IMG/VR virus record: IMGVR_UViG_3300029787_000010
Span: 40,981-104,980 of that record
DNA from: a virus
DNA: 64,000 nt
Direction: 5' to 3' (one strand)
Shown: in pieces, positions 32,483 through 63,712 of the stretch
Numbering within the stretch: position 1 is the stretch's first letter
Layout: each line of letters opens with the position of its first letter
The notes under the pieces: model-generated
The model's input: only the letters and a program-made list of their open reading frames with translations
What the model was told of the DNA's origin: nothing
Database searches by the model: none
Position numbers and translations under genes: made by a program

Positions 32483-33355
32483 TCAGTTAAATGCTCTCCC
32501 AGCCAGTTGGTGGACTTCGTCCCATGACATGTTTGCCATGTCTTCGGTGGAAGGAATGGTGATGGATGGTGCGGCTTCCGACTTGCGGAGCGTTGCACCT
32601 TCGCCAGTGGCGAGGCCGTCAATTCGTGCACTGAGGGAGGCAACTGCCTTCTCAATGGATGCGAGTGGGCCACGAGCGTCAAACTGGGAAGCACGGCGGG
32701 TTTCAACCTCAGCCGTTTGTTCCTTGGCAAGACGGTCAGCGAACACAGCGCCGAGGCTGCTCTTGAGTTGCTTCTCAACGGAAGCAGCCTTGTAAGCAGC
32801 GTAGGCTTCCTCAACTTGTGCTGGGGTCAAATCGCTCGGGGACAAGAATCCCTTAGCAACTGAGCCGCCGGAGCCGCTGTTGAGTTTGCCGATGGCGTTG
32901 GTGGAAGGAGAGCCGTTCTCTTGAGCACGGCCCTTGACTTGCCCAGCGAAGTAATCAGCGCCGTCGCCGATGGATTCGGGGGTAGAGCCAAGGTTGGCTT
33001 TGGAGAGTTCGTCAAAGTGCGAGCGAGCACCATCAGTGTCTACACCAGCGGATTTGAGAGTGTTCTCCATCCAGTGGAGGTAGTCTTCTGTAATCACATC
33101 GCTGTACTCACCTTTGTTCATGCTGTGGCCGTACATGCCTTCCTTTTTGTCTTCGTCATCTGCCATTTCCTCACCTTTGTCTTCGGTTTTTTTGTCTTCG
33201 GTTTTTTTGTCTTCGGGCTTGTCGTCCTTCTCGTCCTTCTTGTCGTCCTTCATGTCAGCAAAAGGGTTTTCGCCCTTTTCCATGGCATCCAGTCGCAGGT
33301 TAATTCGGTCAAGAACTGATGACAGTTCGCCCATTGCTTCGTTTTCGTTGGTCAT
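32483..33355 (-). CDS. Nested in-frame scaffolding protein (internal start)
   Basis: AAGGAGG precedes the in-frame ATG at 33355 (MTNENEAM), right after the protease domain ends. Confidence 0.55.
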   Translation of the reverse strand: MTNENEAMGELSSVLDRINLRLDAMEKGENPFADMKDDKKDEKDDKPEDKKTEDKKTEDKGEEMADDEDKKEGMYGHSMNKGEYSDVITEDYLHWMENTLKSAGVDTDGARSHFDELSKANLGSTPESIGDGADYFAGQVKGRAQENGSPSTNAIGKLNSGSGGSVAKGFLSPSDLTPAQVEEAYAAYKAASVEKQLKSSLGAVFADRLAKEQTAEVETRRASQFDARGPLASIEKAVASLSARIDGLATGEGATLRKSEAAPSITIPSTEDMANMSWDEVHQLAGRAFN

Positions 33356-33889
33356 TGTGGTGTCCTCCTTCAATATACGGAAGGTTGCTTCGGGGTTTAT
33401 CCCTTTTTCACAAATGGTAACCTCGTGTAGTTCCAGTTTGGAGATTTCCGTGTAGTCGCCATGTTGGCTGTCGGATTTGTTGACACGCTTGAAAGCCTGT
33501 CCTCCAATACTGAATCCACGAAGGGACCCTTTGCGAATTTCATTGGCAACTTCTCGTGCCTTCTCAATGTCATCACGAACTTTGATGACGACAAACAGAC
33601 CAGCGTCATCAACACCGGACTTCCAAAGTCGGCCACTGCTGTCGGTGTAAGCATCAATGACGCTGCCGACTTGGATGTTAGAGTGAGCCAACTGAACATT
33701 GCGGAACTCTTGGGACTTCATGAATCCGTCAAAAGCATTTTTGAGTGCGCCTCGGGTAATCAAGTCCCCTTGCTTGTCCACCATTTCAACGGAGGCATAG
33801 CCTGCGACAACAAGGTCACCGCTGCTCTTGAGTACCGAGAGACTACCCGTCTGAGAGAACGGGGAGGTTCGGAGAGCAGTGGCCATCAT
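32483..33889 (-). CDS. Prohead protease (HK97-type serine protease) fused to scaffold
   Basis: 'VAGYASVEMVDKQGD', catalytic-type His in 'QLAHSN', Ser in 'GFSIGG', 'LHEVTI...NPEA'; acidic and coiled-coil C-terminal half. Confidence 0.9.
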   Translation of the reverse strand: MMATALRTSPFSQTGSLSVLKSSGDLVVAGYASVEMVDKQGDLITRGALKNAFDGFMKSQEFRNVQLAHSNIQVGSVIDAYTDSSGRLWKSGVDDAGLFVVIKVRDDIEKAREVANEIRKGSLRGFSIGGQAFKRVNKSDSQHGDYTEISKLELHEVTICEKGINPEATFRILKEDTTMTNENEAMGELSSVLDRINLRLDAMEKGENPFADMKDDKKDEKDDKPEDKKTEDKKTEDKGEEMADDEDKKEGMYGHSMNKGEYSDVITEDYLHWMENTLKSAGVDTDGARSHFDELSKANLGSTPESIGDGADYFAGQVKGRAQENGSPSTNAIGKLNSGSGGSVAKGFLSPSDLTPAQVEEAYAAYKAASVEKQLKSSLGAVFADRLAKEQTAEVETRRASQFDARGPLASIEKAVASLSARIDGLATGEGATLRKSEAAPSITIPSTEDMANMSWDEVHQLAGRAFN

Positions 33890-33913: not shown

Positions 33914-33921
33914 TATTTAAT
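33914..33921 (-). promoter_or_regulatory. Putative archaeal TATA box for the protease-MCP unit
   Basis: ATTAAATA ends 24 nt before ATG 33889. Confidence 0.5.
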
Positions 33922-46415: not shown

Positions 46416-48625
46416 ACGCCACCCCCAAAGGTGACCTTGACCGCCTTGACGATTTCGGGACCGACATTCCAGTCGTTTGCTACACGGTGCCAGTCGCCGT
46501 GCGAGTGGTAGATACCGTGAACATCCATCACGCTGATGCCGAGTGATTTGGCTACAACACTGACATCGTCAGCCTTGGTGATTCGGGACCGGTATTGAGC
46601 CAGTGATTTAACCACGGTGTCTTGACTTGCTTCTTTGAATTGAATACGCTCCATGGTCTTGAGCAGGTCGCTAACCGTGCGCTCTTCGGAAGTGATGATG
46701 CTGCCGTCGTCCAGTCGTTGTTGCCGAGATACCCTTTGAGTGCCTTCAAAGTCTTGAAAGGACGGTTGGGGTAAGTTCGCAGAAGCCCGTGATACTCCCG
46801 GTGTGAGGTTCGTCAATTGAGCGCGGGCCGCTTCAATCTCTTCCATGCGAGTGGGCGCAGCAGCGTCCCCCATGGCTTGCCGATGCAGTTCCGGACTATC
46901 TGCATTGTTATCAAGCATGTTTCGTGTGACTTCATGTGCTTGGTCAGCCGTTGGCGAAACACCTTGGGGTATGCCGTGCACATGGCCAGCCCAATGGTCG
47001 GGCACAGACGAGTGAATAGCGTGGTGAGGGTGGTCTTTGTGGGCCTCGGGGAGTTTACCAGTGACTTGGGACCTTTGTCCTCTATGGTCGTCGGTATTAC
47101 GAAACGCATTGGCGAATTGGAGGTATGCGTCGTGGTTTGCCTCATCATAAGCATGGTCTTTGTGGTCGTAGTCTGCGTTGCGAAAATTATCAAGTGCCTG
47201 CGCCCAAGCGTCCTGTTGGCTCTCCACTTGCCCCGATGCAACAAGGTTAAGTGAATGCATCCAAGGAATAGCGTACAAATCACGAGAACGATTAAGACCC
47301 TTATTCTTTGATGGGCCTTTGCGAGTTGCGATAGAGTCCCGAACCCGTTTGTACATGGGAGAATCCATGTCCACACCAAGTGATGCAGCAACCCCTCTCA
47401 AAATGGCCGGTGCCCGTGAGTTATCGTTTACTTGGTGTCCCGTCCCACCAATCAAGAATTGTGAAATGGGCATGGATGCGTATTGCCTGTACTTTTCTAT
47501 GTCTTCCGGTTTAATTTCTACCCCAATGTTACGAAGTTCTTGCATAATTTCGTTAGTACGAGATGCGATTTCAGCCGAATTTTCAACTTGGGCTCGCTTT
47601 TTACCACCCATTTTTCGTGTTGGTGTAGCGAACAGTGCTTTAGGAGCGAACTGCGCTACATCCAGCGGGTGGTAATTCTCAATGACTTTCCCCGACTTGT
47701 GTCCGGGAATCATACCGCTTCCATCTTCGCCAAAATGCTTCTTTGCTTCGGGCCCACTGAGTGCTTTGACTCGTCCAAAGGTCATGTTGTCAAGGCGAAC
47801 TTTGGAGCCTCCAAGGTAATGAAATCTGTCCTTGGGTGGCAACTCAACCCCTAATTGCTCTCGGTACATATTACGAAGACTTTCGTACAGTTCTGCTGTT
47901 GAATCATACATTGGATGCACGCCACCGTCAATGAACATCCCTTTGTCAGCACCTTCCAAGTCATGCAAGTTCCCCATGTTTGCGGAGTAATTAGTTGGGC
48001 GACCGTCTTCGGTCCCGACTTGCCTTTGGCTGCGAACACTGTTCCCGTCAAAAGGTCCCGATGTGTTTAGTCGCCACAGCACGCTATTTACATCGGGTAA
48101 CTTTTGCCCGGTTTTGTTGTGATTGTCAATGGCCCCTTGAAATAATTGCTTAACAAGGTCCATGTTCCAAATTGGAATGTTGTGTTCTTCTCCAAATCCG
48201 GGGTTGCGAGCATCCGGGTTGATACCCTCTTTGATAAGGTGACTCCGTATTACAGAATGCATGTGCCCCATCATGTAGTCAAGCGGGTGAGAACTTTCGG
48301 GCTCGGTTACACCATTGCGAGTGCGATGAAGAAGGCGACCTGTTTTGAAGTCGTGACCAAACGGCGGGTGGTGGGCTCGCACGCCCTCGGGCCCTTCAAA
48401 CTGGTCGTACCAACCAATGTCTTCGGGTGGATTGAATACTTCTTTGGGTGACCAGTGGCGAATCGGATGCGTCTCATCCTCACCGATGTGATACAGACCG
48501 TAGGATTTGCGAAGCACCATCTGCTGCTTCATGATGTTCCATGTGCGGTGAAGCGTGTCTACGATGTCAAACCTGCCACGGCTCTCGGCCAGCGAGTCCG
48601 ACGAGTAGTGAACACGAAACATCAA
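46412..48625 (-). CDS. Hypothetical 737-aa protein, putative core protein
   Basis: Long ORF with ATGA overlaps; 'TWNIMK' and 'MVLRK|S' motifs near the N-terminus; HTH-like C-terminus. Confidence 0.7.
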   Translation of the reverse strand: MMFRVHYSSDSLAESRGRFDIVDTLHRTWNIMKQQMVLRKSYGLYHIGEDETHPIRHWSPKEVFNPPEDIGWYDQFEGPEGVRAHHPPFGHDFKTGRLLHRTRNGVTEPESSHPLDYMMGHMHSVIRSHLIKEGINPDARNPGFGEEHNIPIWNMDLVKQLFQGAIDNHNKTGQKLPDVNSVLWRLNTSGPFDGNSVRSQRQVGTEDGRPTNYSANMGNLHDLEGADKGMFIDGGVHPMYDSTAELYESLRNMYREQLGVELPPKDRFHYLGGSKVRLDNMTFGRVKALSGPEAKKHFGEDGSGMIPGHKSGKVIENYHPLDVAQFAPKALFATPTRKMGGKKRAQVENSAEIASRTNEIMQELRNIGVEIKPEDIEKYRQYASMPISQFLIGGTGHQVNDNSRAPAILRGVAASLGVDMDSPMYKRVRDSIATRKGPSKNKGLNRSRDLYAIPWMHSLNLVASGQVESQQDAWAQALDNFRNADYDHKDHAYDEANHDAYLQFANAFRNTDDHRGQRSQVTGKLPEAHKDHPHHAIHSSVPDHWAGHVHGIPQGVSPTADQAHEVTRNMLDNNADSPELHRQAMGDAAAPTRMEEIEAARAQLTNLTPGVSRASANLPQPSFQDFEGTQRVSRQQRLDDGSIITSEERTVSDLLKTMERIQFKEASQDTVVKSLAQYRSRITKADDVSVVAKSLGISVMDVHGIYHSHGDWHRVANDWNVGPEIVKAVKVTFGGGV

Positions 48626-49674
48626 GCCGTCCTCCCGCTACCCCTGCTCACAAAGTGGTGACCGGAGGCACCGGCAGAACGGAACTCATCAGCCTCTTTG
48701 TTGTCAGTGCCCCCTTGAGGCTGAGTGGTTTCACCATCACGGTGCCCAGCCTCACCTTCTTTGGAGGTACCCTTGCCGGACGGCGGTGCTTTCTTGGCTG
48801 ACTCCTTGCGAGCGATGGCTCGCTTCAAGTCTCGCAAAATGTTGCGCAATTGGCTGAGGTGAAGGTAGCCCGAAGCCGACTTAACGAGCATCTGCATCTC
48901 TTGAAGTTCGGACTTCATGGTCATGGGCTTGAACTTTGTACGGCGTTCGGGGTTGTGCCCTTGATAGGGCAAGGAAATGTTACCGCGATTGGCCTGCATG
49001 GCTCGGGTACCGAGACTTTGGCGGTATTTGTCGGGAAACAAACGCAGAGGCTGCTTAGTATCAAGTCCAAGGTGGGACATCTCAACGGCTTTATCAGCAT
49101 TAACCATGCCACCCTGTTCAGTACGAGGACTGAGTGTACGGGACTGTCGCTTGGCACGCATGGATGTTGCTTGCTTTTGACGAGAGCGGCCACCGGGGGG
49201 AGCCTTGAACTGCTGGGTGGAGAAGTCGCCGTCTCGCTTGAGCAGTTGGAAAGCGATGTCCATCGGCTCACCGGCCATGACAGTTTGCTGACCGTATGGA
49301 CTAAGTGCCTGTGCACCAAAACTGATGCTGGCTTCGGGAGAACCAGTGCCCGGCGAGCCAGTGAGGGCACTGAGTTCATTCTGTTGAGCCATAGGCGTTT
49401 CTTCCATCATGTCCTCTTCCGGCTCGTCCATCGGCATAGGAGTGGGCATACCCATGTCGGGTTCTTCCGATTCAATGTTGAACTTGAGATGGGGCAGTTC
49501 ACGCGTCTTAACACGCTCCTCCTTCTCCTTCATTTTTTTGTCCTTCATTTGGTCCTCATGTTCAGGTGAACCCTTACCGTGCCGGTAGTCTTCGCCGTCC
49601 GAATAAAGGTGGTCCGAATCGGACCGGGGGGAATACATGCGGGTGTCAGTACCGGTACCCATGCTACTGGTCAT
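48622..49674 (-). CDS. Hypothetical disordered protein with internal tag (GEPMDIAFQLLK)
   Basis: 350 aa; acidic half before the motif, basic half after it. Confidence 0.7.
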   Translation of the reverse strand: MTSSMGTGTDTRMYSPRSDSDHLYSDGEDYRHGKGSPEHEDQMKDKKMKEKEERVKTRELPHLKFNIESEEPDMGMPTPMPMDEPEEDMMEETPMAQQNELSALTGSPGTGSPEASISFGAQALSPYGQQTVMAGEPMDIAFQLLKRDGDFSTQQFKAPPGGRSRQKQATSMRAKRQSRTLSPRTEQGGMVNADKAVEMSHLGLDTKQPLRLFPDKYRQSLGTRAMQANRGNISLPYQGHNPERRTKFKPMTMKSELQEMQMLVKSASGYLHLSQLRNILRDLKRAIARKESAKKAPPSGKGTSKEGEAGHRDGETTQPQGGTDNKEADEFRSAGASGHHFVSRGSGRTA

Positions 49675-54167: not shown

Positions 54168-55313
54168 TCAGTCTTCCTTGTCCTTTTTGTCGTCCCGCTT
54201 ACCGTTGGTAGACGGGCCGGGGCCGGCTTTGGAACCAATGACGATGACCATGCCGTGAGCAGGCTTTTTCTTTTTGTCATCATCGGCTTTCGTCATGCAA
54301 TGCATTTTGTTGACGCAGCCTTTCTTGCCACAGCGTTCGCACACACTGGCTTTCATAATGTTGCGTTCCATTACACCCAAGGTGGAGTTGATGAGATTGT
54401 TTCCAAGTGACATAGGCGTCCCCTTCTGTTTGATGGAAGGGGCCTGCATATTTGATGATGTCGGAGCCGACTGGAATTGCTTGCCTTGGAAAATATCCTT
54501 GTCAGCCATACCGCTCACACCGACATTTTGCACACCGCCAACGCCGCCGGACTGTTGGCCTGCGAGTTGAAAGCCCTGTTGACCGCCTTGTCCTGCACCA
54601 AAGCCGGCCACGGCTCCTGTTGTACCTGCCGCAAAGTTTGGAAATTCTGTATCTGTAGGCGAAAACGGACCCATTCCCAACGCCATCATAAGTTCGGGAG
54701 CATAAGCGGCGGCGGCACCAGCGCCAGTGGCTCCGGTCATGACAGCACCCCGTTTTGCACGCTGACCCAATGTCAACGGAGCGACTGGCGCTTGTGCTCT
54801 CGGAGCCAACCTTGCAGCCCGTGCTTGGGCAGCATTGAAGGCTTGACGCTGAGCACCAAGTTGAGAAGGAGAAACATAGGGGGCTACATCACCAAAGGCA
54901 TAACCAATTTCGGGATTATCTCGCTGTAACATGCCCCTTCGCTGCTGAGCAGACAACGCTTGATGGCGGGCCGCAGCCTCAGCCGCCTCCTTTTCTGCGG
55001 CTTCTCGTGCTGCTGCACGCTTTGCTGCACGGCGGCCGCCAAACCTCCGGGCCAAAAAGCCCCCACCCTTGACGGGGACAACGCCCTCGGCAAATCCCGA
55101 ACCAAATTCAGCAAGGTTGCTACCGAGTGAATCATTACCTTCTGCAACGGCTGTACCGAGGATTGGCTCGGACACTTCGTTTCGCTTAAGGTTTTGAGCG
55201 CCACGGAAGCCGCCGTAAAGTGCCATCGCCGCCGGAACGAGAAACGGAGCCACCTTCTCCACACGATGCCCTTCTTCAAGGACAGACCAAGCGGCGTCAG
55301 TTGGACTCAGCAT
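54168..55313 (-). CDS. Tagged-family protein, A/G-rich, with C-terminal Cys cluster
   Basis: Probable start ATG 55313 (MLSPTDAAWSVLE); 'NIMK|ASVCERCGKKGCVNKMHC'. Confidence 0.7.
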   Translation of the reverse strand: MLSPTDAAWSVLEEGHRVEKVAPFLVPAAMALYGGFRGAQNLKRNEVSEPILGTAVAEGNDSLGSNLAEFGSGFAEGVVPVKGGGFLARRFGGRRAAKRAAAREAAEKEAAEAAARHQALSAQQRRGMLQRDNPEIGYAFGDVAPYVSPSQLGAQRQAFNAAQARAARLAPRAQAPVAPLTLGQRAKRGAVMTGATGAGAAAAYAPELMMALGMGPFSPTDTEFPNFAAGTTGAVAGFGAGQGGQQGFQLAGQQSGGVGGVQNVGVSGMADKDIFQGKQFQSAPTSSNMQAPSIKQKGTPMSLGNNLINSTLGVMERNIMKASVCERCGKKGCVNKMHCMTKADDDKKKKPAHGMVIVIGSKAGPGPSTNGKRDDKKDKED

Positions 55314-55548
55314 GCAACCAGTTACCCCCATGTTTCATTTTTTCATAAGCCTGTCGCAACATCATGTACTGCTCTTGAGCATCCACAAGGTCGGCGAGCA
55401 ACACATCGTTGCCGTCGCAAGCCTCCTCCAACATGTCAATGATGTCAGCGTAGTGGTCAAGCAAGTCCTGCATGATTTGCAGATGGTCTTCCAGCGTAAG
55501 CACGAACTGAAAGCCCCAACTGTCAAAGGGATATTCGGTCATCACCAC
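55297..55548 (-). CDS. Small acidic helical protein
   Basis: 83 aa; fills the gap between flanking genes; AGGTGAG upstream. Confidence 0.55.
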   Translation of the reverse strand: MVMTEYPFDSWGFQFVLTLEDHLQIMQDLLDHYADIIDMLEEACDGNDVLLADLVDAQEQYMMLRQAYEKMKHGGNWLHAESN

Positions 55549-56819
55549 TCACCTTTGAGGAGGCGGAACGAAAGGTCCATCGGTTCGCCGGTTGTGAAAT
55601 ATCCGCCAAAAGGTACGCCTTGAAAAGTGGGTTCTTCTTGGAGTTGCCCTGCGTGGTCCATTATCCGAATATAATTGGCTTGGGGGCGGTCGCGGGGGCC
55701 TTCTGCAAGAAGTTCGTCCATGAAATTTTCGTACTGTGGCATGACTGTGACTTTAGGGACACTTGGAATTGTAGGTAAGCCGGGCTGAATAACATCTTCA
55801 TGAAACAATTGGTTGAAACTACTCGGATGAATCATGAAGCCCGCCTCGGAACCAATGTCATTTGTGTTGAATACTTGCTGCGGACTGGTACCGTAAAACG
55901 GGAGCGGGCCTTTAGTCCAACCACGCCCGTAGTCAAAAGATGCGTTCGGTTCACCGGGATGATGTGTGGCTGCGTCAATGTTTTCCTCCAATTTGCGCCG
56001 AGCCATTTCTTGATTTTGCGCTGCCCTTGTCGCACGCAGTTTTTCACTTGCACGCTCAACTGCTTCCGGATTAGCAGCGAAGTTTTTGGTCGGTTGTCCA
56101 CGGGCAGGACGACTTTGCTCAAGACGACGGAGTTGTCCTCGTGAAAGCGTTTGTCCGGGCGCTCGCTTGCGGTTAAATTGACGCATCAAGTCTTCTTCAC
56201 GCTGCTCAAACTCATCCATGTCGTCGGGCGAACGCTGGTCCAAGTCAAACTTGAGTAGAAGCCAAGCGATGTCCATAGGGTCGCCCTTGAGGGTACCTCG
56301 CTCTTTGAAGTGGCGGGCCCTGTTGGTGTGAGGGTCTTCGGCGACGAGGGTGTGGTCTTTCGTGTGGCTCATGTCCGGACCTCCTTTACCCTCAATGCCC
56401 CTATGTCGGCGTTCACGCTTGAGTTCTTCCCGATACTTGACACGCTCGGGCGTGGACTCGTACTCGGTGTCGTACTCCAACTTGTGGCGCTTGGCCTCGG
56501 GGCTGACAGGTCGCTTGAGCACCAGTGATTTGACAATCGTTGGCTTCCCGCCGACACCTTGCTTCTTGCTACGCTTCCGCTTGGTTGCCGCACGCTTCTG
56601 CCCTTCGCTCATGGAGCCACTGGTCTTCGGCGTCTTGCTGGACACCTTGACTGACGGGCGGCACTTGGGGTAGCCTTTGCTTCCTTTCTTCGCTTTGGAA
56701 CGACCACATGGCGGGTGCTTACCGTCCTTGTCCTTGCGAGACACATCCACCCACTTCTCCTTGAACCAGCGGTTCAAGTTCTTGCGGACGACGACTTTGC
56801 TCATTTCTTCCCCGCCCAA
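55542..56819 (-). CDS. Modular tagged polyprotein (basic Cys module, HNH-like module, variable module)
   Basis: Modules separated by VVVRK, LVLK, DPMDIAWLLLK and EPMDLSFRLLK; probable start at MSKVVVRK (ATG 56804). Confidence 0.75.
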   Translation of the reverse strand: MGGEEMSKVVVRKNLNRWFKEKWVDVSRKDKDGKHPPCGRSKAKKGSKGYPKCRPSVKVSSKTPKTSGSMSEGQKRAATKRKRSKKQGVGGKPTIVKSLVLKRPVSPEAKRHKLEYDTEYESTPERVKYREELKRERRHRGIEGKGGPDMSHTKDHTLVAEDPHTNRARHFKERGTLKGDPMDIAWLLLKFDLDQRSPDDMDEFEQREEDLMRQFNRKRAPGQTLSRGQLRRLEQSRPARGQPTKNFAANPEAVERASEKLRATRAAQNQEMARRKLEENIDAATHHPGEPNASFDYGRGWTKGPLPFYGTSPQQVFNTNDIGSEAGFMIHPSSFNQLFHEDVIQPGLPTIPSVPKVTVMPQYENFMDELLAEGPRDRPQANYIRIMDHAGQLQEEPTFQGVPFGGYFTTGEPMDLSFRLLKGEW

Positions 56820-57013
56820 GCATCACACACATGGTCAGCACGACAGGTAAAGTCGTACCACTCACAGTACCCCGTCATGGGGTCATCGGTCTTTGAAGAA
56901 TCCCAAGCCTTGCAGTTGCCGCACTTCTTCGGCCCTGTGGCTTTGCGATAATTTGGAGCATCCTCCTTGCCCTTGATGATACGCCAAGCATGTTCAAGGG
57001 CTTCAAGATTCAT
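56801..57013 (-). CDS. Tagged small protein with HiPIP-like Cys pattern
   Basis: 'ALEHAWRIIK' tag, then Y...CGNC...GYC...VCDAW. Confidence 0.7.
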   Translation of the reverse strand: MNLEALEHAWRIIKGKEDAPNYRKATGPKKCGNCKAWDSSKTDDPMTGYCEWYDFTCRADHVCDAWAGKK

Positions 57014-57201
57014 TTCTTCTTCCCCTTCTTTCCTTTGAACTTACCTTTACAGTACTGTACAGCCCATCCGTTAGCATACGCTGAGGGATAAACTTTGAAC
57101 TTACGCTTCGCCGCCGCTTTACCAGCAGGGCACAACTTCTTCTCAAGAAGGTCCCAAGCCGTCTGCATGCCAAAGCAGTGTTCACAGTCGCAATCGGTCA
57201 T
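57010..57201 (-). CDS. Tagged small basic protein (YPSAYANGW module)
   Basis: 'CDCEHCFGMQTAWDLLEK' leader followed by a Lys-rich module. Confidence 0.75.
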   Translation of the reverse strand: MTDCDCEHCFGMQTAWDLLEKKLCPAGKAAAKRKFKVYPSAYANGWAVQYCKGKFKGKKGKKK

Positions 57202-57205
57202 CGTA

Positions 57206-57439
57206 TCACAGTCCGTCCATTAAAACGACATCGCCGTGTGGACTAATTTTCACATTGTCCATGGAAGCAATCAACTTCTTGCACTCAGCCTTGGGTCGGT
57301 CGCAGGCTTTGCAGCAGTCCTCCAACGACGCCGCCCCGCCTTCTTTCTTCAAGCAAGCAATGAGTTTTTTCTTAGCCTCTTCGTCACTTGCGTTCTTTTC
57401 TTCTTTCAACAAGGTCCATGCGGTTTCAAACGGATTCAT
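57206..57439 (-). CDS. Tagged small protein, winged-helix-like
   Basis: 'MNPFETAWTLLK'; then 'LIACLKKEGGAASLEDC...NVKISPHGDVVL'. Confidence 0.75.
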   Translation of the reverse strand: MNPFETAWTLLKEEKNASDEEAKKKLIACLKKEGGAASLEDCCKACDRPKAECKKLIASMDNVKISPHGDVVLMDGL

Positions 57440-57894
57440 GCTCGCTCACTCCTTGCGTCTATCAAATCTTGAAGAGTAGGCCCTCTTTGCGGGCGACCGA
57501 TGGTGCTTTCGCCCGAATCGGGGTCACTGACATAAAAGGAAGAAGGCATTCCTGTCCCTCGTTCCTTTTCTGTTTTATAAGGTAGGTATTGATGAGGTAG
57601 CCTGTGTTCGGGAGCCATCTCCGACATAGAATAAGCACTTTGCCTAAACATGGCCGGTGCGAAAGAAGCGTACTCGCCAGTCAACCCAGCAGGAACAACA
57701 CCCGCCCGCTCCAAGGCCTCGTTGACATCTCTCAATTCTTCATGTTCGTACAGCGTGGAATAGCCGCCCTTGTCAAACCCTTCATCTGCTCTATGTTTCG
57801 GAACAGCAGGCAAGCCCCCGTACTTCTCTGCAAAGGCAAAGTTTTCCCGCTTTAAAAGAAGCCACGCTTGTTCCATTGGGGTCAACAGTTTCAC
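57436..57894 (-). CDS. Tagged hypothetical protein
   Basis: 'TPMEQAWLLLK' near the N-terminus. Confidence 0.7.
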   Translation of the reverse strand: MKLLTPMEQAWLLLKRENFAFAEKYGGLPAVPKHRADEGFDKGGYSTLYEHEELRDVNEALERAGVVPAGLTGEYASFAPAMFRQSAYSMSEMAPEHRLPHQYLPYKTEKERGTGMPSSFYVSDPDSGESTIGRPQRGPTLQDLIDARSERA

Positions 57895-57904
57895 CTCAAA
57901 ACTT

Positions 57905-58336
57905 TCATTCTGTACCCATGTACTGACCTTGTGCGTCCATTGCTAACGCCGCTTCAAGGGCCTCTTCGGGACTTTGTTGATAAAAACTGTAAGGTATTTT
58001 TCCTACCGGGATAGTAGGTTGTCCTCGCTCTAACTCATGGGGGTATGGAATATCCGACCTGTAGCCCGGATTTGAAACAGCAGTTATGTCCCCTGCGCGG
58101 TGAGCCACTGCGGGGTGAACGGTCCTAACATTCCTTGTCATCTCGGTAGATGGTTGACGGCCTCCTGCCATCCCACGAGCGTAAGGGTTGGATTTACCAC
58201 CCGGCTTCGTAGCAGTTTGAGTTATCTGTGGTTTAGGGTCTGCGAAGGCTTCACGAAACCCTTTTTCGTCTTGTTGCCTAAAATCGTCTTGTTTCAATAC
58301 GGTCCACGCTATGTCTATCGGATTCAACAGTTCCAC
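57905..58336 (-). CDS. Tagged hypothetical protein
   Basis: 'NPIDIAWTVLK'; internal 'TVHPAV'. Confidence 0.7.
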   Translation of the reverse strand: MELLNPIDIAWTVLKQDDFRQQDEKGFREAFADPKPQITQTATKPGGKSNPYARGMAGGRQPSTEMTRNVRTVHPAVAHRAGDITAVSNPGYRSDIPYPHELERGQPTIPVGKIPYSFYQQSPEEALEAALAMDAQGQYMGTE

Positions 58337-59118
58337 CTCTTGAGTGATGCTCCCTTGGGAGTGAGTTTACCCTTCTTGCTGGTCGGGCCTTTGACGCCCG
58401 ACATGCGAGCACAGAATGATTTACGACGCTTGGCGGATTTACTACCGGGCTTCAACTTACTCGGCTTCTTGGTGACGGGTGGCTTGAGGTTTGCACCCGT
58501 CTTGCGCTTAGCGGCGGCACGACCTTTAGCGTTCAGCCCGCCTTTCTTGTTATGCTTGTTAGGGTTGTAGCCATGGAATGGCTTGGATTTTTTCTTAGCC
58601 TTCATTAGCGCAAAAGCGTTATCCATCGGCGAACAACAATCGCAGAATGAAACATCGGACCAGTCGGTCTTGGCAACATCTCCTTCACCCATCTGCTGTG
58701 TTGCTAACTGTGTTGCTTCCTCATTGGACATCCCTTGAAGTTTGAAAGCGGCAATCATATCAGCCATTTCTTGAGATATGTTTTGTGGGAATGAGGCAGC
58801 AAAAGACCCACTCATCATTTGTTCAAACTTCCTTGCTTGTTCTTCTCGCTGTGCTTGCGCCGCTCTAATTTCCTCCATAGCCGAATCCATAGGGTTTGGC
58901 TCTTGAGGTTCATCGGTCTTCACATTACCGCCAGCAGAAATCTGTGTGTTGTTGTCACCCGTTATTCTTTGGTTGACATCTCTTTTACTTGTGTCAATAT
59001 GGGGTTCATCGGCTTCGGCGGGCGATAGCGTTGAAAAAGGAATTAGAACACGACGCTTCATCTTTGAAATGCTGGGCGAATGCGACTGAGAGATGACCCT
59101 TACTAAAGCGTCCGCCAT
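58324..59118 (-). CDS. Protein with internal tag and C-terminal very basic module (KRRKSFCARM...SLKRWNC)
   Basis: 'CDCCSPMDNAFALMK|A' separates the acidic N-terminal half from the Lys-rich C-terminal module. Confidence 0.75.
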   Translation of the reverse strand: MADALVRVISQSHSPSISKMKRRVLIPFSTLSPAEADEPHIDTSKRDVNQRITGDNNTQISAGGNVKTDEPQEPNPMDSAMEEIRAAQAQREEQARKFEQMMSGSFAASFPQNISQEMADMIAAFKLQGMSNEEATQLATQQMGEGDVAKTDWSDVSFCDCCSPMDNAFALMKAKKKSKPFHGYNPNKHNKKGGLNAKGRAAAKRKTGANLKPPVTKKPSKLKPGSKSAKRRKSFCARMSGVKGPTSKKGKLTPKGASLKRWNC

Positions 59119-59144
59119 GTGGCGTGACAGCGTGGGTGGCTACA

Positions 59145-59279
59145 TCAAAGTTTCCACATGTGCTCACACTTTGGACATAGCCACGCTACGCCGTGAAGTG
59201 TGCCTCCAGCCTTGGAGTACAATCGTTGAGTAGGTTGTTGCTGACAATAGGGGCAGGCAGGACTTTTGCGCCGTGGCAT
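59145..59279 (-). CDS. 44-aa zinc-finger microprotein (not in ORF track)
   Basis: MPRRKSPACPYCQQQPTQRLYSKAGGTLHGVAWLCPKCEHMWKL; GGTGA upstream. Confidence 0.7.
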   Translation of the reverse strand: MPRRKSPACPYCQQQPTQRLYSKAGGTLHGVAWLCPKCEHMWKL

Positions 59280-59296
59280 GCGTTTCACCGAAAGGG

Positions 59297-59375
59297 GGGA
59301 GAGGCGGTGGAATGAAGAAATACAACAAGTGATTCAGAGCCCAAAAGAACACACAGTGGAGGTACCGCCTCTCCC
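59297..59375. repeat. 12-bp perfect inverted repeat (GGGAGAGGCGGT / ACCGCCTCTCCC) in an intergenic gap
   Basis: Arms at 59297-59308 and 59364-59375. Confidence 0.75.
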
Positions 59376-59403
59376 TTAGTACCCTATGTTCGGCATCCCC
59401 TAC

Positions 59404-59823
59404 TTAACGCTTCCGTTCTTCACGCTCGGTTTTGCGCTGTTTCGTCTCTTCTTCGTCGGCCTTGATGCGAGCCATGAACTCGGGGTCAGCCGGCGGAGGA
59501 GCGGGTGAGGTTTGTTGTGCCATAAGGGGGTTAGGTTCGTCATCGTAAATTGGAATGCGGGATTCACCCCTTTCTCCTCTTCGGTTAAGGAGCCTATGTT
59601 GCTGGGGTGTCAAGCCAGTCAACTCCGGTACACCAAACGGGGGTGACAAAAGTATACTCTTTTTTCCACCTTGGTAGTACGGCGTGCCTTTGGTTTCTTC
59701 GGGTTGAGAATAAGGGTCTGCTCTTGAGCGAGCAGCACTTTGTGCTTCGGCAATTCTTAGACCCAGCGAGGATTCCCGCAGGTCGGCTTTCAGCACAGTC
59801 CAAGCGGCGTCCATTGGGTTCAT
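59404..59823 (-). CDS. Tagged hypothetical protein
   Basis: 'MNPMDAAWTVLK|A'. Confidence 0.75.
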   Translation of the reverse strand: MNPMDAAWTVLKADLRESSLGLRIAEAQSAARSRADPYSQPEETKGTPYYQGGKKSILLSPPFGVPELTGLTPQQHRLLNRRGERGESRIPIYDDEPNPLMAQQTSPAPPPADPEFMARIKADEEETKQRKTEREERKR

Positions 59824-59827
59824 AGTA

Positions 59828-60478
59828 TCACATCTGCCCCATCATGTCGGGTATCATTTGAATGTTGTCGGGGTTGCCCCTACGCCCCACACGACCAAAG
59901 TCTTGGTGACCGGCGATGTGCGGCCGCGAATGCGGCTGCACATCCATATCTCCTTGTTGCTCATAGAATTGACGCAACTTTTCGGGGTAGGCATTGAAGA
60001 CCTGCATGAACTCTTCATTTTGAGAAGGGTCATCAATCTGTAGCATGTTCGCAGTATCATACGCTCTGTAAGGAGAATCCTTTGACATCTCGTGAAGAAC
60101 TCGGTCGGGAGGTTTGGGAGCACCTTGCCGGTGGACCGGGCCCAAGGACCGGCGACTTCCCGCAGAGTTTAGTTGTTCGTCTGTACTGTAAGGGTCTAAA
60201 TTTCCGGGTGCTTCACTATACGGTTGAGGCCAATCTCGGTAACGAGGGGGGTGATATGTGTCAAGATGACCGGGGTTATTGAGCGCAATGTCATCTATGT
60301 CTAACTCTTTGTCGGCGAAGTCTAAGTAAGGGGGCCTTTTCGTAAGCAATCCAGCGATAGCAGGGTGCAGAGTTTGACTCCTTCCGCCGCCGCGCTGCGA
60401 CGGGAAGCCGCCGCCGTGCACCATACGGAGATTGGGGTCGGCCTTGAGGATTGACCATGCTGCATCCATTGGGTTCAT
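59828..60478 (-). CDS. Tagged hypothetical protein
   Basis: Probable start ATG 60478 'MNPMDAAWSILK|A'; internal 'TLHPAIAGLL'. Confidence 0.75.
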   Translation of the reverse strand: MNPMDAAWSILKADPNLRMVHGGGFPSQRGGGRSQTLHPAIAGLLTKRPPYLDFADKELDIDDIALNNPGHLDTYHPPRYRDWPQPYSEAPGNLDPYSTDEQLNSAGSRRSLGPVHRQGAPKPPDRVLHEMSKDSPYRAYDTANMLQIDDPSQNEEFMQVFNAYPEKLRQFYEQQGDMDVQPHSRPHIAGHQDFGRVGRRGNPDNIQMIPDMMGQM

Positions 60479-60482
60479 TGTA

Positions 60483-61727
60483 TCACAGTCCACTTAAGTC
60501 ATACTGAGGTTCGTCAAAGGCGAAGTCAAACTGAGACTCATTAGTTTGAGGGCGACGGAAGCGGTTAAAAATTCTACTTAGGGCGCTACTTAGACGATTA
60601 CGAGGACGAGCGCCTTGAGCGAGTTCTTGACCCAACTCCATCATCGGTCTGTTCTTGAATGATTCATTACTTCCCGGTAACATGGCAGTTTGGTCACCCG
60701 GACGACCTTGGTAAACATCCGTAGAAGGTTTTCGGAGGAGATGCCACGAAGTAATGTCATCGTCTTCACCACGGCTTCGCATGTCTCTAAGGTGTTGACT
60801 GCGAGGGGGGTAAAATCCGCTTCGTGCAACACCGTCTCTACCACGGGATGTACTTAGGATATTGATTGGCTCGCCATAGTTGCCCATGTGAGGGTGTTTT
60901 TGCCTTACTGCTCCAATCATACCAACCTCGGGAGGCGTGTCTAAATGAGGGTGGTGGGCACCGCCCGGTACGCCCGGAATCGGTGCTTGAGGAAGTTGAA
61001 TTGGTCCATATTCAAAATCGTCTATGACATTCGTTAATTCATTTTGTCGCTCATCATAATGGGCATCATACTTTGGGTGCTCTTGTCGGCTACCGAACCT
61101 CATTATCAAGTTTCCATCTTCATCCCGTTGATTTCCGTAACGGCCGACTGGGAAGTTGTCGTAAACGATGGGTGGGTCGCTGAATTTGACACCGGGTACA
61201 CCCTGCACCGTTGTGGGGTCAGCCCTACCCGTCATTCGTGGTACATACGGATAGCCCCTATGGCGAAGTTCATGCTCCGGTGTATTGCGTCGCAGTTCAT
61301 CAAATGCTTCATGGTCTGTTTGACTGGCAAAGTGGTGACGCTTGCCACTGTTCTCCAACATGTCTTGCATTTGCCCCGAGTCTACACGAAGAGAAGGCTG
61401 GTCGCCAAAACTATGAATAAAACTCCCAAGGCCCCCATGTCCTCCTGCGGCTCCGCCACCTTCTCCACCAAACCTATCAAATCGTTTTTCGGGGTCGTAA
61501 ACACCTTGGGGGTCTTCATCACGCGCACGGCTGCGTCTCATGTCCTCTAAACGCTCAAGTAAACCACCTATCGCCGGATGGGCAGTACCGAGTCGCATTT
61601 GCTCAGTGCCCGGATAGCCGACATCACCGAAGCCTACTGGTACTCGGCCTTGACCGTGCTGTTCGTACAATTGCTGTTCATCCAAAGCCTTGAGAAGCGA
61701 CCAAGCGGCTTCCAAGGCTGCGACCAT
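60483..61727 (-). CDS. Tagged hypothetical protein
   Basis: Probable start ATG 61727 'MVAALEAAWSLLK|A'; internal 'TAHPAIGGLL'. Confidence 0.75.
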   Translation of the reverse strand: MVAALEAAWSLLKALDEQQLYEQHGQGRVPVGFGDVGYPGTEQMRLGTAHPAIGGLLERLEDMRRSRARDEDPQGVYDPEKRFDRFGGEGGGAAGGHGGLGSFIHSFGDQPSLRVDSGQMQDMLENSGKRHHFASQTDHEAFDELRRNTPEHELRHRGYPYVPRMTGRADPTTVQGVPGVKFSDPPIVYDNFPVGRYGNQRDEDGNLIMRFGSRQEHPKYDAHYDERQNELTNVIDDFEYGPIQLPQAPIPGVPGGAHHPHLDTPPEVGMIGAVRQKHPHMGNYGEPINILSTSRGRDGVARSGFYPPRSQHLRDMRSRGEDDDITSWHLLRKPSTDVYQGRPGDQTAMLPGSNESFKNRPMMELGQELAQGARPRNRLSSALSRIFNRFRRPQTNESQFDFAFDEPQYDLSGL

Positions 61728-61750
61728 GTACGGGGGAGAGCGGGCGAAGA

Positions 61751-61760
61751 GATAAAGTTT
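61751..61760 (-). promoter_or_regulatory. Putative TATA-like element
   Basis: AAACTTTATC ends 23 nt before ATG 61727. Confidence 0.4.
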
Positions 61761-61762
61761 CT

Positions 61763-62614
61763 TCACACGCCGAGGCCCTGTTCTTGGAGCCGTTTCTCAT
61801 AGCGCAATTGGTCAGCCGAAGGGCCAGCCAAATGCAACTCGGACATCGGTTTGGGGTCTTCTCGGCTGAGATAGGGGCCAAACGAGTATTTCTGCATCAT
61901 GTTGTAAATCTCTTCTTGAGTCATGCCGGGCGTCAGTGCAAACGCTCCCGTTTCATGACCCATGTTTTTCAAATTGCGAAACGCATGTTCGGCCGCTTGT
62001 CGGTCATAATCACCCAACATTTCTTCAACGAAATAGGGCCCAAGTTCATCGTACATTTGAGTACGGAAGGCCATGTCGTTTTTGAGTCGTTCCTTGAGTG
62101 CGGTGTCCTCCTGCAAATCCATGATGCCGGACTGCTGCTTGGCCCATTCAACCATCTCCGGGTCAATAAGTTGGTGAACAACTTCGTGCCCCATTATATC
62201 GCCAACCCGTTGTGCGTACTGGTCAAAGTTGTCGCCAACATCCCCTTCAAAGTCCAAATCTAAAATGCGCTGAACATTGGCTCCGGAAAAACTCCCATCG
62301 GGGTTGAGCCGGGGAACGGACCCGCCACGATAGTAAGGTTCTCGTGAAGGGCTGCTTACCACTTTTGCTGCCGCCATGTTTGGAAAGTTTTCCCGCATGC
62401 CTGCTGATGTCATCCCACGACCTGTGTTGTAATGCATGTTGAGAGGGCTGTACCGTTCAGCCCCCGATATGTAGGATGGACCGCCATAAGGGCGCGTCCC
62501 CTTATATCGTTCCGCGTTGTAATCAGCACTCATCACACCACGAGGAGTACCTTTGCCACCAAGAAAAAAATCCGCTTTGAGGACAGACCAAGCCTGTTCA
62601 AAGGGGGACATCAC
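61763..62614 (-). CDS. Tagged protein with HExxH zincin-like metallopeptidase motif
   Basis: 'SPFEQAWSVLK|A'; 'DIMGHEVVHQL' and downstream 'HETGAF'. Confidence 0.7.
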   Translation of the reverse strand: MMSPFEQAWSVLKADFFLGGKGTPRGVMSADYNAERYKGTRPYGGPSYISGAERYSPLNMHYNTGRGMTSAGMRENFPNMAAAKVVSSPSREPYYRGGSVPRLNPDGSFSGANVQRILDLDFEGDVGDNFDQYAQRVGDIMGHEVVHQLIDPEMVEWAKQQSGIMDLQEDTALKERLKNDMAFRTQMYDELGPYFVEEMLGDYDRQAAEHAFRNLKNMGHETGAFALTPGMTQEEIYNMMQKYSFGPYLSREDPKPMSELHLAGPSADQLRYEKRLQEQGLGV

Positions 62615-63072
62615 TGACCACCGAACACTGTGAAAGGATTGAAGTTCGGGTTGGGAGGTCGTGAAAAACTACCGGGCTCGGGTAAGTTCTGCATGGCGTC
62701 AATGCGGTCTTGGTGGAACTGATTCGCCCGGTCCACGGCTTGGTCACGGTCAGCCGTCACTCGGACAAGCCGCTCGTCGGGCGTAAGGTTCCTACCTTTG
62801 CGTTGATGCTGGAACCTCACTTCGTGGAGCGGGCCCTCTTGGTCTTGCTCGTGATAAGGTGTGAAGAAGCCCTTGGACTTGGGGTGCATCTGTGAAAAGC
62901 CGCCTTTGTGTCTACCCAAGGTGTGCAAGGGAAGGCCGTCCCTCCCTACCTGTCGGTTCACCACTGTTTCCGTAGGTGAGCGCATCTGTGGAAACATGGC
63001 CGAGCGACCATGCAGCGACCGCTGAGGGTCATACTGCTTGAGGACAGACCAAGCCTGTTCAAGCGGATGCAT
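62611..63072 (-). CDS. Tagged hypothetical protein, first gene of the late unit
   Basis: 'MHPLEQAWSVLK|Q'. Confidence 0.75.
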   Translation of the reverse strand: MHPLEQAWSVLKQYDPQRSLHGRSAMFPQMRSPTETVVNRQVGRDGLPLHTLGRHKGGFSQMHPKSKGFFTPYHEQDQEGPLHEVRFQHQRKGRNLTPDERLVRVTADRDQAVDRANQFHQDRIDAMQNLPEPGSFSRPPNPNFNPFTVFGGQ

Positions 63073-63091: not shown

Positions 63092-63117
63092 ACTTAAAAA
63101 AAATTGTTAATTTTTTA
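63092..63117 (-). promoter_or_regulatory. Putative late-operon promoter (AT-rich, quasi-palindromic)
   Basis: TTTTTTAAG about 20 nt before ATG 63072, within an AT block flanked by GC-rich DNA. Confidence 0.55.
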
Positions 63118-63171
63118 GGGCCCTAAGCCTGTGAGCAAAAAAAATGGCGGAGCGCCGTGTGTGGTTAAAGG

Positions 63172-63675: not shown

Positions 63676-63712
63676 TGCCCTGTTTTCGTGAGGTGGCCTT
63701 TTTGGACTTCTC

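What the first reader, a model, noticed from the sequence alone, without database searches (positions are those of the whole stretch)
54168..63072. Array of about 13 unrelated proteins sharing a short AWxxLK tag: candidate capsid-targeting cargo system
SEEN: consecutive genes with largely unrelated bodies carry the same helix-length motif, mostly at the N-terminus: HPLEQAWSVLK, SPFEQAWSVLK, AALEAAWSLLK, NPMDAAWSILK, NPMDAAWTVLK, SPMDNAFALMK, NPIDIAWTVLK, TPMEQAWLLLK, NPFETAWTLLK, FGMQTAWDLLEK, EALEHAWRIIK, DPMDIAWLLLK, EPMDLSFRLLK, SPTDAAWSVLE. Outliers occur at 49.2 kb (EPMDIAFQLLK) and 27.4 kb (WMSVGEQLLK). The motif ends in the same LLK as the MCP propeptide (SELLK|ADAP). KNOWN: T4 internal proteins share a 10-residue capsid-targeting leader that the prohead protease removes. 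INFERENCE: this is an archaeal-virus equivalent, a portable tag that docks diverse payloads (peptidase, metal-binding, basic DNA-binding, HNH-like) into the prohead, is clipped after Lys, and may allow co-injection with the DNA.
Basis: partly seen in the sequence, partly recalled or inferred. Interest (0 to 1): 0.92.

Follow-up and report, generated by a model that had tools for sequence, protein, structure and literature searches.

The report
Shared peptide tag on magrovirus proteins
Thirteen neighbouring, mostly unrelated genes of this ocean archaeal virus (a magrovirus) carry the same ten-residue helix, which probably loads a fast-changing set of proteins into the virus head, as the targeting leader of phage T4 does, though neither loading nor cutting has been measured.

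Summary
A profile built from related viral contigs finds 14 tag copies of 10 bits or more in the 105-kb genome, all on the minus strand. Twelve lie in 54168-63072, one at 49.2 kb and one outside the window. Reversed and shuffled genomes give none. Two listed copies (T06, T10) are sub-threshold, and the 27.4-kb outlier is not supported.

The tag is M-x-P-[FMIL]-[DE]-x-A-W-x-[LIV]-L-K. It is conserved as a peptide, not as DNA, and sits at residue 1 in ten genes. It recurs on at least 69 unrelated protein families in related viral contigs. It is absent from 185,579 prokaryotic species genomes beyond chance. In five complete relatives it lies only on the capsid-gene strand (43 of 43).

The capsid protein and the HK97-type protease-scaffold have invariant hydrophobic-L-K sites at their predicted maturation borders. 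The commonest payload in relatives has an ADP-ribosyltransferase fold, as does the packaged T4 Alt protein.

My best reading (about 0.5) is a capsid-cargo docking tag, clipped when N-terminal. No packaging or cleavage data exist. Tags at C-termini or at both ends show that removal cannot be the whole story.

This scan has noted the same tag on other magrovirus genomes. I found no paper describing it.

The parts
62611..63072 (-). T01, 153 aa, tag at residues 1-12
   Evidence: HMM 20.3 bits. ATG start directly at the tag. No Pfam or PHROG family.
61763..62611 (-). T02, 282 aa, tag at residues 1-12; body has an invariant H-E-x-x-H
   Evidence: HMM 24.5 bits. ATGA overlap with the T01 stop. The database search found 9 homologues besides T02 itself, and all carry the tag. 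One of them has an 85-aa zinc-finger extension, so its tag is internal. The fold model is unusable, pLDDT 41.5.
60483..61727 (-). T03, about 414 aa from the ATG at 61727 (the ORF is open to 61766); N-terminal tag, low-complexity body
   Evidence: HMM 10.2 bits. The relative L001 conserves the sequence only from this Met onward.
59828..60478 (-). T04, about 216 aa, N-terminal tag
   Evidence: HMM 27.0 bits. 68% identical homologue in L001.
59404..59823 (-). T05, 139 aa, N-terminal tag
   Evidence: HMM 26.2 bits. Shares 8 of 12 upstream non-coding bases with T04.
58324..59118 (-). T06, 264 aa: acidic N-part (net -10), degenerate internal tag (58600-58629), basic DUF6321 domain (net +30)
   Evidence: Pfam DUF6321, E 3e-17. 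Tag 7.9 bits, sub-threshold. Charge split. In other contigs DUF6321 follows a true N-terminal tag.
57905..58327 (-). T07, about 140 aa, TTG start, N-terminal tag
   Evidence: HMM 20.8 bits. GAGGTG plus a 6-nt spacer before the TTG. 26% identical to T08 over 135 aa.
57436..57885 (-). T08, about 149 aa, TTG start, N-terminal tag
   Evidence: HMM 20.0 bits. 11 of 12 upstream bases shared with T07.
57206..57439 (-). T09, 77 aa, N-terminal tag plus a small Cys-containing domain
   Evidence: HMM 23.4 bits. Tagged homologues in L082 and L065.
57010..57201 (-). T10, 63 aa, doubtful tag-like helix at residues 12-22, then the basic N-part of DUF5872
   Evidence: HMM 5.4 bits, within the null range. Trp is not conserved in 19 homologues. 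Weak DUF5872 match.
56801..57013 (-). T11, 70 aa, N-terminal tag plus a conserved four-Cys domain
   Evidence: HMM 11.1 bits. In 12 homologues the tag varies with lineage while the body stays conserved.
55542..56804 (-). T12, about 420 aa: basic DUF5872/phrog_6437 part (net +27), internal tag (56250-56279), 232-aa module (net -7), then a second tag 3 residues from the C-terminus (55554-55583)
   Evidence: HMM 17.7 and 13.9 bits. Pfam and PHROG matches. In L001 the homologue ends 3 residues after the first tag and lacks the middle module.
54168..55331 (-). T13, 387 aa (probable start 55313), N-terminal tag ending in Glu instead of Lys
   Evidence: HMM 15.1 bits. The Glu is conserved in L001.
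48622..49674 (-). T14, 350 aa, a conserved core protein: acidic half (net -15), internal tag of the G-E-P-M-D class (49237-49254 core), basic half (net +18)
   Evidence: HMM 17.6 bits. Both halves are conserved in many related contigs. Charge split.
32483..33889 (-). Prohead protease (Peptidase_S78) fused to a scaffold domain. Invariant hydrophobic-L-K at residue 21 and at the protease/scaffold junction (residue 174).
   Evidence: Pfam S78, E 2e-10. Alignment of 28 homologues. The same sites occur in 62-64% identical relatives.
31280..32464 (-). Major capsid protein. Invariant L-K / A-D at residues 33-36, closing a 34-residue N-terminal segment.
   Evidence: Pfam SU10_MCP. 32-35% identical to the HVTV-1 and HCTV-1 capsid proteins. 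Alignment of 27 homologues.

Best explanation
The tag is a short amphipathic docking helix (Pro cap, then hydrophobic residues at positions i, i+4 and i+7, ending in L-K). I propose that late-expressed viral proteins use it to bind inside the assembling prohead, to the capsid protein or the protease-scaffold core, and so are enclosed with the DNA. The HK97-type (S78) prohead protease would then cut after the L-K. That cut removes N-terminal tags and splits multi-module proteins at internal tags, for example releasing a basic DNA-binding half from an acidic pro-part. The cargo would be delivered to the next host cell with the genome. New cargo genes join by duplication and by recombination or fusion at the tag-coding junctions. 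Shown here: the tag, its portability, its virus specificity, its strand bias, and its likeness to the conserved L-K borders of the head proteins. Inferred: binding, enclosure, cleavage and injection.
For: (1) The tag is statistically robust: 14 sites of 10 bits or more against none in controls. (2) Selection acts on the peptide. Third codon positions and Leu codons vary freely, and information content falls from 4.2 bits at Lys to under 1 bit immediately after it, with Ala at the next position in 33% of cases. (3) It is portable. 116 N-tagged ORFs from IMG/VR contigs fall into 69 body clusters. Their Pfam domains are D12 DNA methyltransferase, HD_4, GNAT, DUF6321 and zinc ribbons, whose models do not include the tag. 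The close relative L001 has the same array with payloads swapped. (4) It is virus-specific. The N-terminal pattern gives 14 scattered single hits in 596 Gb of prokaryotic genomes, and I calculate about 17 expected by chance. A looser pattern without the ATG start hit more than 119 stretches in IMG/VR, 37 of the 120 loci held carrying 2-8 tags. (5) Timing context fits. In five 90-100% complete genomes, 43 of 43 pattern hits lie on the capsid-gene strand. The one tagged gene in the early region is antisense to its neighbours. The array genes are translationally coupled, with ATGA overlaps, upstream of the head module. (6) The capsid protein (L-L-K/A-D at residue 34), the protease N-terminus (residue 21) and the protease/scaffold junction (residue 174) all have invariant hydrophobic-L-K. 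HK97 gp5 is cut after Lys103 by the founding S78 protease (my own knowledge). (7) Internal tags sit between oppositely charged halves: -10|+30, -15|+18 and +27|-7. (8) The commonest payload family in relatives folds as a Tpt1/KptA-like ADP-ribosyltransferase domain, with the tag as a separate N-terminal helix: pLDDT 82, Foldseek probability 1.00, VIA Z 11.7, rmsd 1.9 A over 81 residues. T4 Alt, a packaged and injected ADP-ribosyltransferase, and phage ARTs encoded beside head genes are precedents (PMC9503650; PMC3012670).
Against: There are no virion proteome, N-terminal mass or binding data. The match to the head-protein sites is only three residues long. A further I-L-K lies inside the mature capsid domain (residue 146), so the tripeptide alone cannot define a cut. 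Many tags in relatives lie 0-6 residues from the C-terminus or at both ends of one protein, where cleavage would achieve little. The haloarchaeal relative HVTV-1, with a similar capsid protein and an S78 protease, has no tag in its 41-kb head-tail region. Most bodies in this window are low-complexity and probably disordered (16-24% hydrophobic residues), not obvious enzymes. Other conserved late genes, such as the small GTPase-like gene, co-occur equally well.
Confidence: 0.5

Rival explanations
1. The tag is a docking helix for a different virus-encoded hub, not the capsid. One candidate is the conserved small GTPase-like protein and its membrane-protein neighbours just downstream of the array (a sorting signal for a virus-built site). 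Others are the viral chaperonin or the T14-type core protein.
For: The tag is virus-specific. It works at the N-terminus, internally and at the C-terminus, as a pure binding motif would. The GTPase-like gene is present in 5 of 5 complete genomes and lies next to the array. The chaperonin is present in 4 of 5.
Against: Nothing links the tag to these proteins beyond co-occurrence, which holds for every magrovirus core gene. The 90% complete relative with a full array has no chaperonin match. This reading does not explain the sharp end of the motif at Lys or the L-K borders in the head proteins.
Confidence: 0.17
2. The tag is only a protease recognition and cleavage signal that punctuates modules and regulates activity, as in a polyprotein. 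It has no role in targeting.
For: Internal tags lie at domain and charge borders. Gene fusions keep the tag between modules. The motif ends sharply at Lys. The same L-K occurs at head-protein borders.
Against: An 11-residue leader at residue 1 of some 130 proteins has no evident use if it is merely removed. The strict Pro, Asp/Glu, Ala-Trp and helical spacing are more than serine-protease subsites usually read. C-terminal tags followed by 0-3 residues would make cleavage pointless.
Confidence: 0.1
3. The tag is a terminal amphipathic membrane-targeting helix that brings viral proteins to the host membrane.
For: It is a short amphipathic helix with Trp at protein termini.
Against: The tag has net charge about zero with an invariant acidic residue, unlike basic membrane-targeting helices (my own knowledge). 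Near-invariant Pro, Ala-Trp and L-K point to a specific protein pocket. The payloads include DNA methyltransferase, ADP-ribosyltransferase and basic DNA-binding-like domains.
Confidence: 0.06
4. The tag is just the conserved N-terminus of one fast-diverging paralogue family, with no separable function.
For: Some neighbours are weak paralogues, and adjacent pairs share junction DNA.
Against: The tag sits on domains of unrelated fold and Pfam family. It also occurs internally and at C-termini. It stays conserved while bodies fall below detectable similarity.
Confidence: 0.04

Closest known systems
Capsid targeting sequence (CTS) of phage T4 internal proteins IPI-III and Alt
   Same: Both are leaders of about 10 residues shared by otherwise unrelated, fast-changing proteins. 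In T4 the leader directs them into the scaffolding core of the prohead, and foreign proteins such as GFP can be loaded with it (PMC3012670). Alt is an ADP-ribosyltransferase injected with the DNA (PMC9503650).
   Different: The sequence is different. The protease family differs: S78, HK97-type here, and gp21-type in T4 (my own knowledge). The presumed cut is after Lys rather than after Glu (my own knowledge for T4). The tag here is also used internally, at C-termini and at both ends. The payload repertoire is far larger (at least 69 clusters), and the host is archaeal. Function is unproven here.
Cargo-loading peptides of encapsulins
   Same: A short portable peptide docks diverse cargo to the inner face of an HK97-fold shell (my own knowledge).
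   Different: Encapsulins have no portal, terminase, DNA or maturation protease. Their family-1 peptides are extended C-terminal G-S-L-type motifs, not a Pro-capped helix (my own knowledge).
C-terminal targeting tail of the HK97 protease gp4, and scaffold C-terminal helices (P22 gp8; 80alpha gp46 and SaPI1 CpmB)
   Same: Terminal peptides or helices that bind the interior of an HK97-fold procapsid and can carry foreign proteins in (my own knowledge: Duda et al. 2013; Dearborn et al. 2017).
   Different: Those sit on one or two dedicated assembly proteins, not on dozens of unrelated cargo proteins. Here the scaffold's own conserved tail differs from the tag.
MuF-fused and polyvalent head-packaged effectors; P1 Dar proteins
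   Same: Enzymes such as ADP-ribosyltransferases and methyltransferases are encoded beside head genes and delivered from the capsid (PMC9503650; P1 from my own knowledge).
   Different: Delivery there uses fusion to a structural domain or ordered protein-protein dependence, not a 10-residue tag.

Membership tests
T4-type capsid targeting sequence system | A short leader shared by otherwise unrelated proteins of one virus | tested here: met
   14 significant tag sites on bodies with no mutual similarity; 69 body clusters in relatives.
T4-type capsid targeting sequence system | The leader is necessary and sufficient for enclosure in the prohead | not testable with these tools
   This needs tag-reporter co-expression with prohead proteins.
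T4-type capsid targeting sequence system | The leader is removed by the prohead protease at the consensus used on the head proteins | tested here: inconclusive
   The tag ends in hydrophobic-L-K, as do three invariant predicted borders in the capsid protein and protease-scaffold. However, only three residues match, one more I-L-K lies inside the mature capsid domain, and no termini were measured.
T4-type capsid targeting sequence system | Tagged proteins are present in virions and enter the host with the DNA | not testable with these tools
   There is no cultured magrovirus and no virion proteome. The cultured relative HVTV-1 lacks the tag in its head-tail region.
T4-type capsid targeting sequence system | Prohead protease of the T4 gp21 type | tested here: not met
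   The protease matches Pfam Peptidase_S78 (HK97 type), E 2e-10. So this would be an analogue, not a member by descent.
Encapsulin cargo-loading system | An HK97-fold shell without portal, terminase or genome packaging | tested here: not met
   Terminase, portal, tail tube and protease genes are present.
Magroviruses (tailed viruses of Marine Group II archaea / Poseidoniales) | A genome of about 100 kb, a capsid protein about 33% identical only to haloarchaeal siphovirus capsid proteins, a halovirus-like head module, and often a chaperonin | tested here: met
   The contig is 104,980 bp. The capsid protein is 32-35% identical to those of HVTV-1 and HCTV-1 and matches no bacteriophage record. 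A chaperonin gene is present. This fits the description in PMC5434244. The host itself was not tested.
ADP-ribosyltransferase superfamily (commonest tagged payload, in relatives, not in this window) | ART fold with an NAD-binding core | tested here: met
   Model pLDDT 82. The top matches are Tpt1/KptA (Foldseek probability 1.00) followed by PARP, DarT, Arr and toxin ARTs. VIA Z 11.7, rmsd 1.9 A over 81 residues. Catalytic residues and activity were not tested.

The most novel reading that the evidence does not exclude
The tag is a sorting signal read by the virus's own small GTPase-like protein and membrane-protein module, which lies directly downstream of the array. It would send dozens of unrelated viral proteins to a virus-built membrane site or compartment in the archaeal cell, a protein-trafficking code with no counterpart among prokaryotic viruses. 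My evidence neither supports nor excludes this beyond adjacency and co-occurrence in 5 of 5 genomes.
Probability: 0.07. Interest if true: 0.92.

Novelty: new variant of a known kind. Interest (0 to 1): 0.75.

Why it matters
Magroviruses are among the most abundant archaeal viruses of the surface ocean, and none has been cultured. If the tag loads cargo into the head, a tenth or more of their genes are virion-delivered effectors: an ADP-ribosyltransferase, a DNA methyltransferase, an HD hydrolase, basic DNA-binding proteins and many unknowns. Membership of this set could then be read directly from sequence, giving a ready list of candidate host-takeover and anti-defence proteins for Marine Group II archaea. 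It would also extend the T4 principle of a portable capsid-targeting leader to archaeal viruses with an HK97-type protease. Finally, it would offer a 10-residue handle for loading foreign proteins into HK97-fold capsids. The idea can be tested with three recombinant proteins.

Tried and rejected
1. Complex prediction with protease-scaffold, capsid protein and T11, each as an alignment: no verdict (score 0.00, controls not run). This is neither for nor against binding.
2. AlphaFold2 of T02 with 11 sequences: pLDDT 41.5, unusable, so the peptidase idea stays untested.
3. Pfam and PHROGs on the 13 array proteins: only DUF6321, DUF5872 and unnamed PHROGs matched.
4. The tagged kinase-like gene outside the window has no Pfam match at E 0.1.
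5. The search for related loci with T02 found nothing. With T04 it found one relative.
6. Pfam on 20 long or C-terminally tagged proteins of relatives: no head, tail or terminase family, and nothing informative.
7. The HVTV-1 head-tail region has no tag. The HVTV-1 virion-protein paper is not held.
8. The sigma-70 promoter and terminator scan found nothing beyond chance and is not suited to archaea.
9. Co-occurrence of the chaperonin and the GTPase-like gene does not discriminate between readings.
10. An ESM Atlas look-up of T14 gave only unnamed viral clusters below the useful score.
11. Lineages with a variant tag on T11 keep the same L-K sites in their head proteins, so no co-variation test was possible.
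12. A DNA-repeat explanation is rejected, because conservation is at the amino-acid level.
13. Rejected or downgraded items: the 27.4-kb outlier, T10 as a true tag, and the resemblance of the protease/scaffold junction to the whole tag (only its last four residues fit).
14. Literature searches for the motif, DUF6321, or magrovirus cargo or leader sequences found nothing.

Full report
WHAT THE WINDOW IS. The window is bases 40981-104980 of a single 104,980-bp viral contig. All long ORFs of the window lie on the minus strand. They include a large terminase (43909-45414), a portal (40808-42556), an S78 prohead protease fused to a scaffold domain (32483-33889), an SU10-type major capsid protein (31280-32464) and a tail-tube-like protein. 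The capsid protein is 32-35% identical to those of the haloarchaeal siphoviruses HVTV-1, HCTV-1 and HCTV-5. It matches no bacteriophage record.

I built an HMM from 170 distinct tag instances in other viral contigs and searched all six frames of the genome.
- Fourteen sites score 10-27 bits, all on the minus strand. Twelve lie in eleven genes of 54168-63072, one at 49.2 kb (T14), and one in the only minus-strand gene of the early region outside the window.
- The reversed genome and 20 shuffles give no hit of 10 bits or more.
- T06 (7.9 bits) and T10 (5.4 bits) are not significant alone. T06 is credible because its tag sits directly before a DUF6321 domain, which in other contigs follows a true N-terminal tag. 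T10 is doubtful because its Trp is not conserved among 19 homologues.
- The 27.4-kb outlier is not supported.

PEPTIDE, NOT DNA. Codon-by-codon alignment shows free third positions and mixed Leu codons. After start codons are corrected (GAGGTG plus spacer, TTG starts, ATGA overlaps), the tag begins at residue 1-3 in ten genes. The pattern is M-x-P-[FMIL]-[DE]-x-A-W-x-[LIV]-L-K. The genes are packed head to tail, several with overlapping stop and start codons, so they look like one transcription unit upstream of the head module. Adjacent pairs (T04/T05, T01/T02, T07/T08) are the most similar at the DNA level, including up to 11 of 12 non-coding bases before the start. That pattern suggests tandem duplication or recombination at the junctions.

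DISTRIBUTION.
- One close relative (L001, a 96.5-kb contig) has the same array with payloads gained, lost and replaced.
Of the 120 loci, 37 carry 2-8 tags.
- Of 188 instances, 130 are N-terminal. In these, Met (or an alternative start codon) sits two residues before the Pro in 87%, and translated ribosome-binding-site residues lie upstream.
- The 116 complete N-tagged ORFs fall into 69 body clusters.
- The N-terminal pattern gave only 14 scattered single hits in one genome each of 185,579 prokaryotic species. I calculate about 17 expected by chance. The tag is therefore a viral invention, not a host signal.
- In five 90-100% complete genomes, all 43 matches to a six-residue pattern lie on the capsid-gene strand, with none in the reversed control.

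PAYLOADS. In this window most bodies are low in hydrophobic residues (16-24%) and rich in Pro, Gly, Ser, Gln and Asn. They have no family match except DUF6321 (T06) and DUF5872 (T12, weakly T10). T02 has an invariant H-E-x-x-H, but its model was unusable. In relatives, tagged proteins include a D12 DNA methyltransferase, an HD_4 hydrolase, a GNAT and zinc ribbons. The largest tagged family (20 of 116) occupies the T02 slot in L001. It gave a confident model (pLDDT 82) in which the tag is a separate N-terminal helix and the body is an ADP-ribosyltransferase domain. The closest matches are Tpt1/KptA, with Foldseek probability 1.00 and VIA Z 11.7 at rmsd 1.9 A over 81 residues.

THE TAG IS NOT ONLY A LEADER. 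A second class, G/S-E-P-M-D-[LIM]-A-[WF]-[RQA]-L-L-K, lies inside or near the end of long proteins.
- In this window, internal tags separate oppositely charged halves: T06 -10|+30, T14 -15|+18, T12 +27|-7.
- T12 carries a second tag three residues from its end. Its homologue in L001 stops three residues after the first tag and lacks the middle module.
- One T02 homologue has an 85-residue zinc-finger module fused in front of the tag.
- In relatives, many proteins end 0-6 residues after a tag, and several carry tags at both ends.

LINK TO HEAD MATURATION. Across 27 capsid proteins, L-K/A-D at residues 33-36 is invariant and closes a somewhat more variable 34-residue N-terminal segment. Across 28 protease-scaffolds, a hydrophobic-L-K at residue 21 and an I-L-K at the protease/scaffold junction are invariant. 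Relatives only 62-64% identical keep both. The founding S78 protease of HK97 cuts its capsid protein after a Lys (my own knowledge). In the tags, conservation collapses right after the Lys. These facts fit a cut after L-K, but only three residues are shared, and one more I-L-K lies inside the mature capsid domain. The scaffold's own conserved C-terminal tail differs from the tag.

MECHANISM AND RIVALS. My best reading (about 0.5) is a docking helix that binds inside the prohead and is clipped after L-K when N-terminal or internal, loading a changeable cargo set that enters the next cell with the DNA. Only the anatomy is shown; binding, enclosure, cutting and injection are inferred. The rivals are:
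- a docking helix for another viral hub, such as the GTPase-like and membrane module next to the array, present in 5 of 5 genomes;
- a pure protease-processing signal;
- a membrane-targeting helix;
- a mere family N-terminus.
The single complex-prediction job gave no verdict.

COMPARISON WITH WHAT IS KNOWN. The closest known system is the T4 capsid targeting sequence, which puts diverse defence-related internal proteins, and engineered GFP, into the scaffolding core (PMC3012670). The injected T4 Alt enzyme is the precedent for the ART payload (PMC9503650). That survey also reports that KptA-type domains are rare in archaeal viruses. This system is not a member by descent. The protease is S78 rather than the T4 type, the sequence differs, and the tag is used at either end and internally. 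Encapsulin cargo peptides and the capsid-targeting tails of the HK97 protease and of scaffolds are functional parallels.

NOVELTY. I found no paper that mentions the motif or any tagged cargo set in magroviruses. Earlier notes of this scan describe the same or variant tags on other magrovirus genomes and reach a similar reading. They are not independent evidence.
- the absence of the tag from cellular genomes;
- the absolute strand bias in five genomes;
- the shuffle control;
- the charge-split pattern at internal tags;
- tags at both ends of single proteins;
- the ART fold of the commonest payload.

Noticed in passing
window 2329-18792 (-): A single open reading frame of 5,487 codons downstream of the tail-tube-like gene. 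It is far larger than any gene annotated in the HVTV-1 head-tail stretch I looked at. I did not examine it.
   Followed up: no
window 33917-39604 (-): A 1,895-aa ORF between portal and protease with a weak ATP-dependent DNA ligase domain match (E 7e-4, below Pfam's cut-off). HVTV-1 has large genes in the same position, one annotated as zeta toxin. It carries no tag.
   Followed up: partly
window 63100-63700: A GC-rich (57%) stretch just upstream of the first tagged gene, with several direct repeats (15-37 nt) and three inverted repeats. No convincing gene. It could be a regulatory, replication or packaging site near the contig end.
   Followed up: partly
window 55297-55548 (-) and 59145-59288 (-): Two small untagged ORFs lie inside the tagged array: an 83-aa acidic protein overlapping the T12/T13 junction, and a 47-aa four-Cys zinc-ribbon-like protein between T05 and T06.
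   Followed up: no
window 52584-53300 (-): A small GTPase-like gene (P-loop G-P-P-M-A-G-K-T) just downstream of the array. It is conserved at 64-96% identity in all five complete genomes searched but has no Pfam match at E 0.001.
   Followed up: partly
window 49671-50381 (-): A 236-aa protein with a sigma-70 region 4 / LuxR-type helix-turn-helix (E 4e-6), between the membrane module and T14. This is an odd regulator type for an archaeal virus.
   Followed up: no
G000:C1:18069-18866 (-), outside the window (L126:2069-2866): The only minus-strand gene in the plus-strand early region carries a full N-terminal tag (19.3 bits).
   Followed up: partly
L080:1054-2316, L107:1376-2914, L008:6157-7677, L019:4996-5946, L117:2765-4477, L039:26-634: Proteins of related contigs with a tag-like helix at the N-terminus and a full tag 2-6 residues from the C-terminus. 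L117 has three tags.
   Followed up: partly
window 42538-43857 (-): A 439-aa ORF between terminase and portal with only a faint LAGLIDADG endonuclease match (E 0.07). HVTV-1 has HNH endonucleases around its terminase.
   Followed up: no
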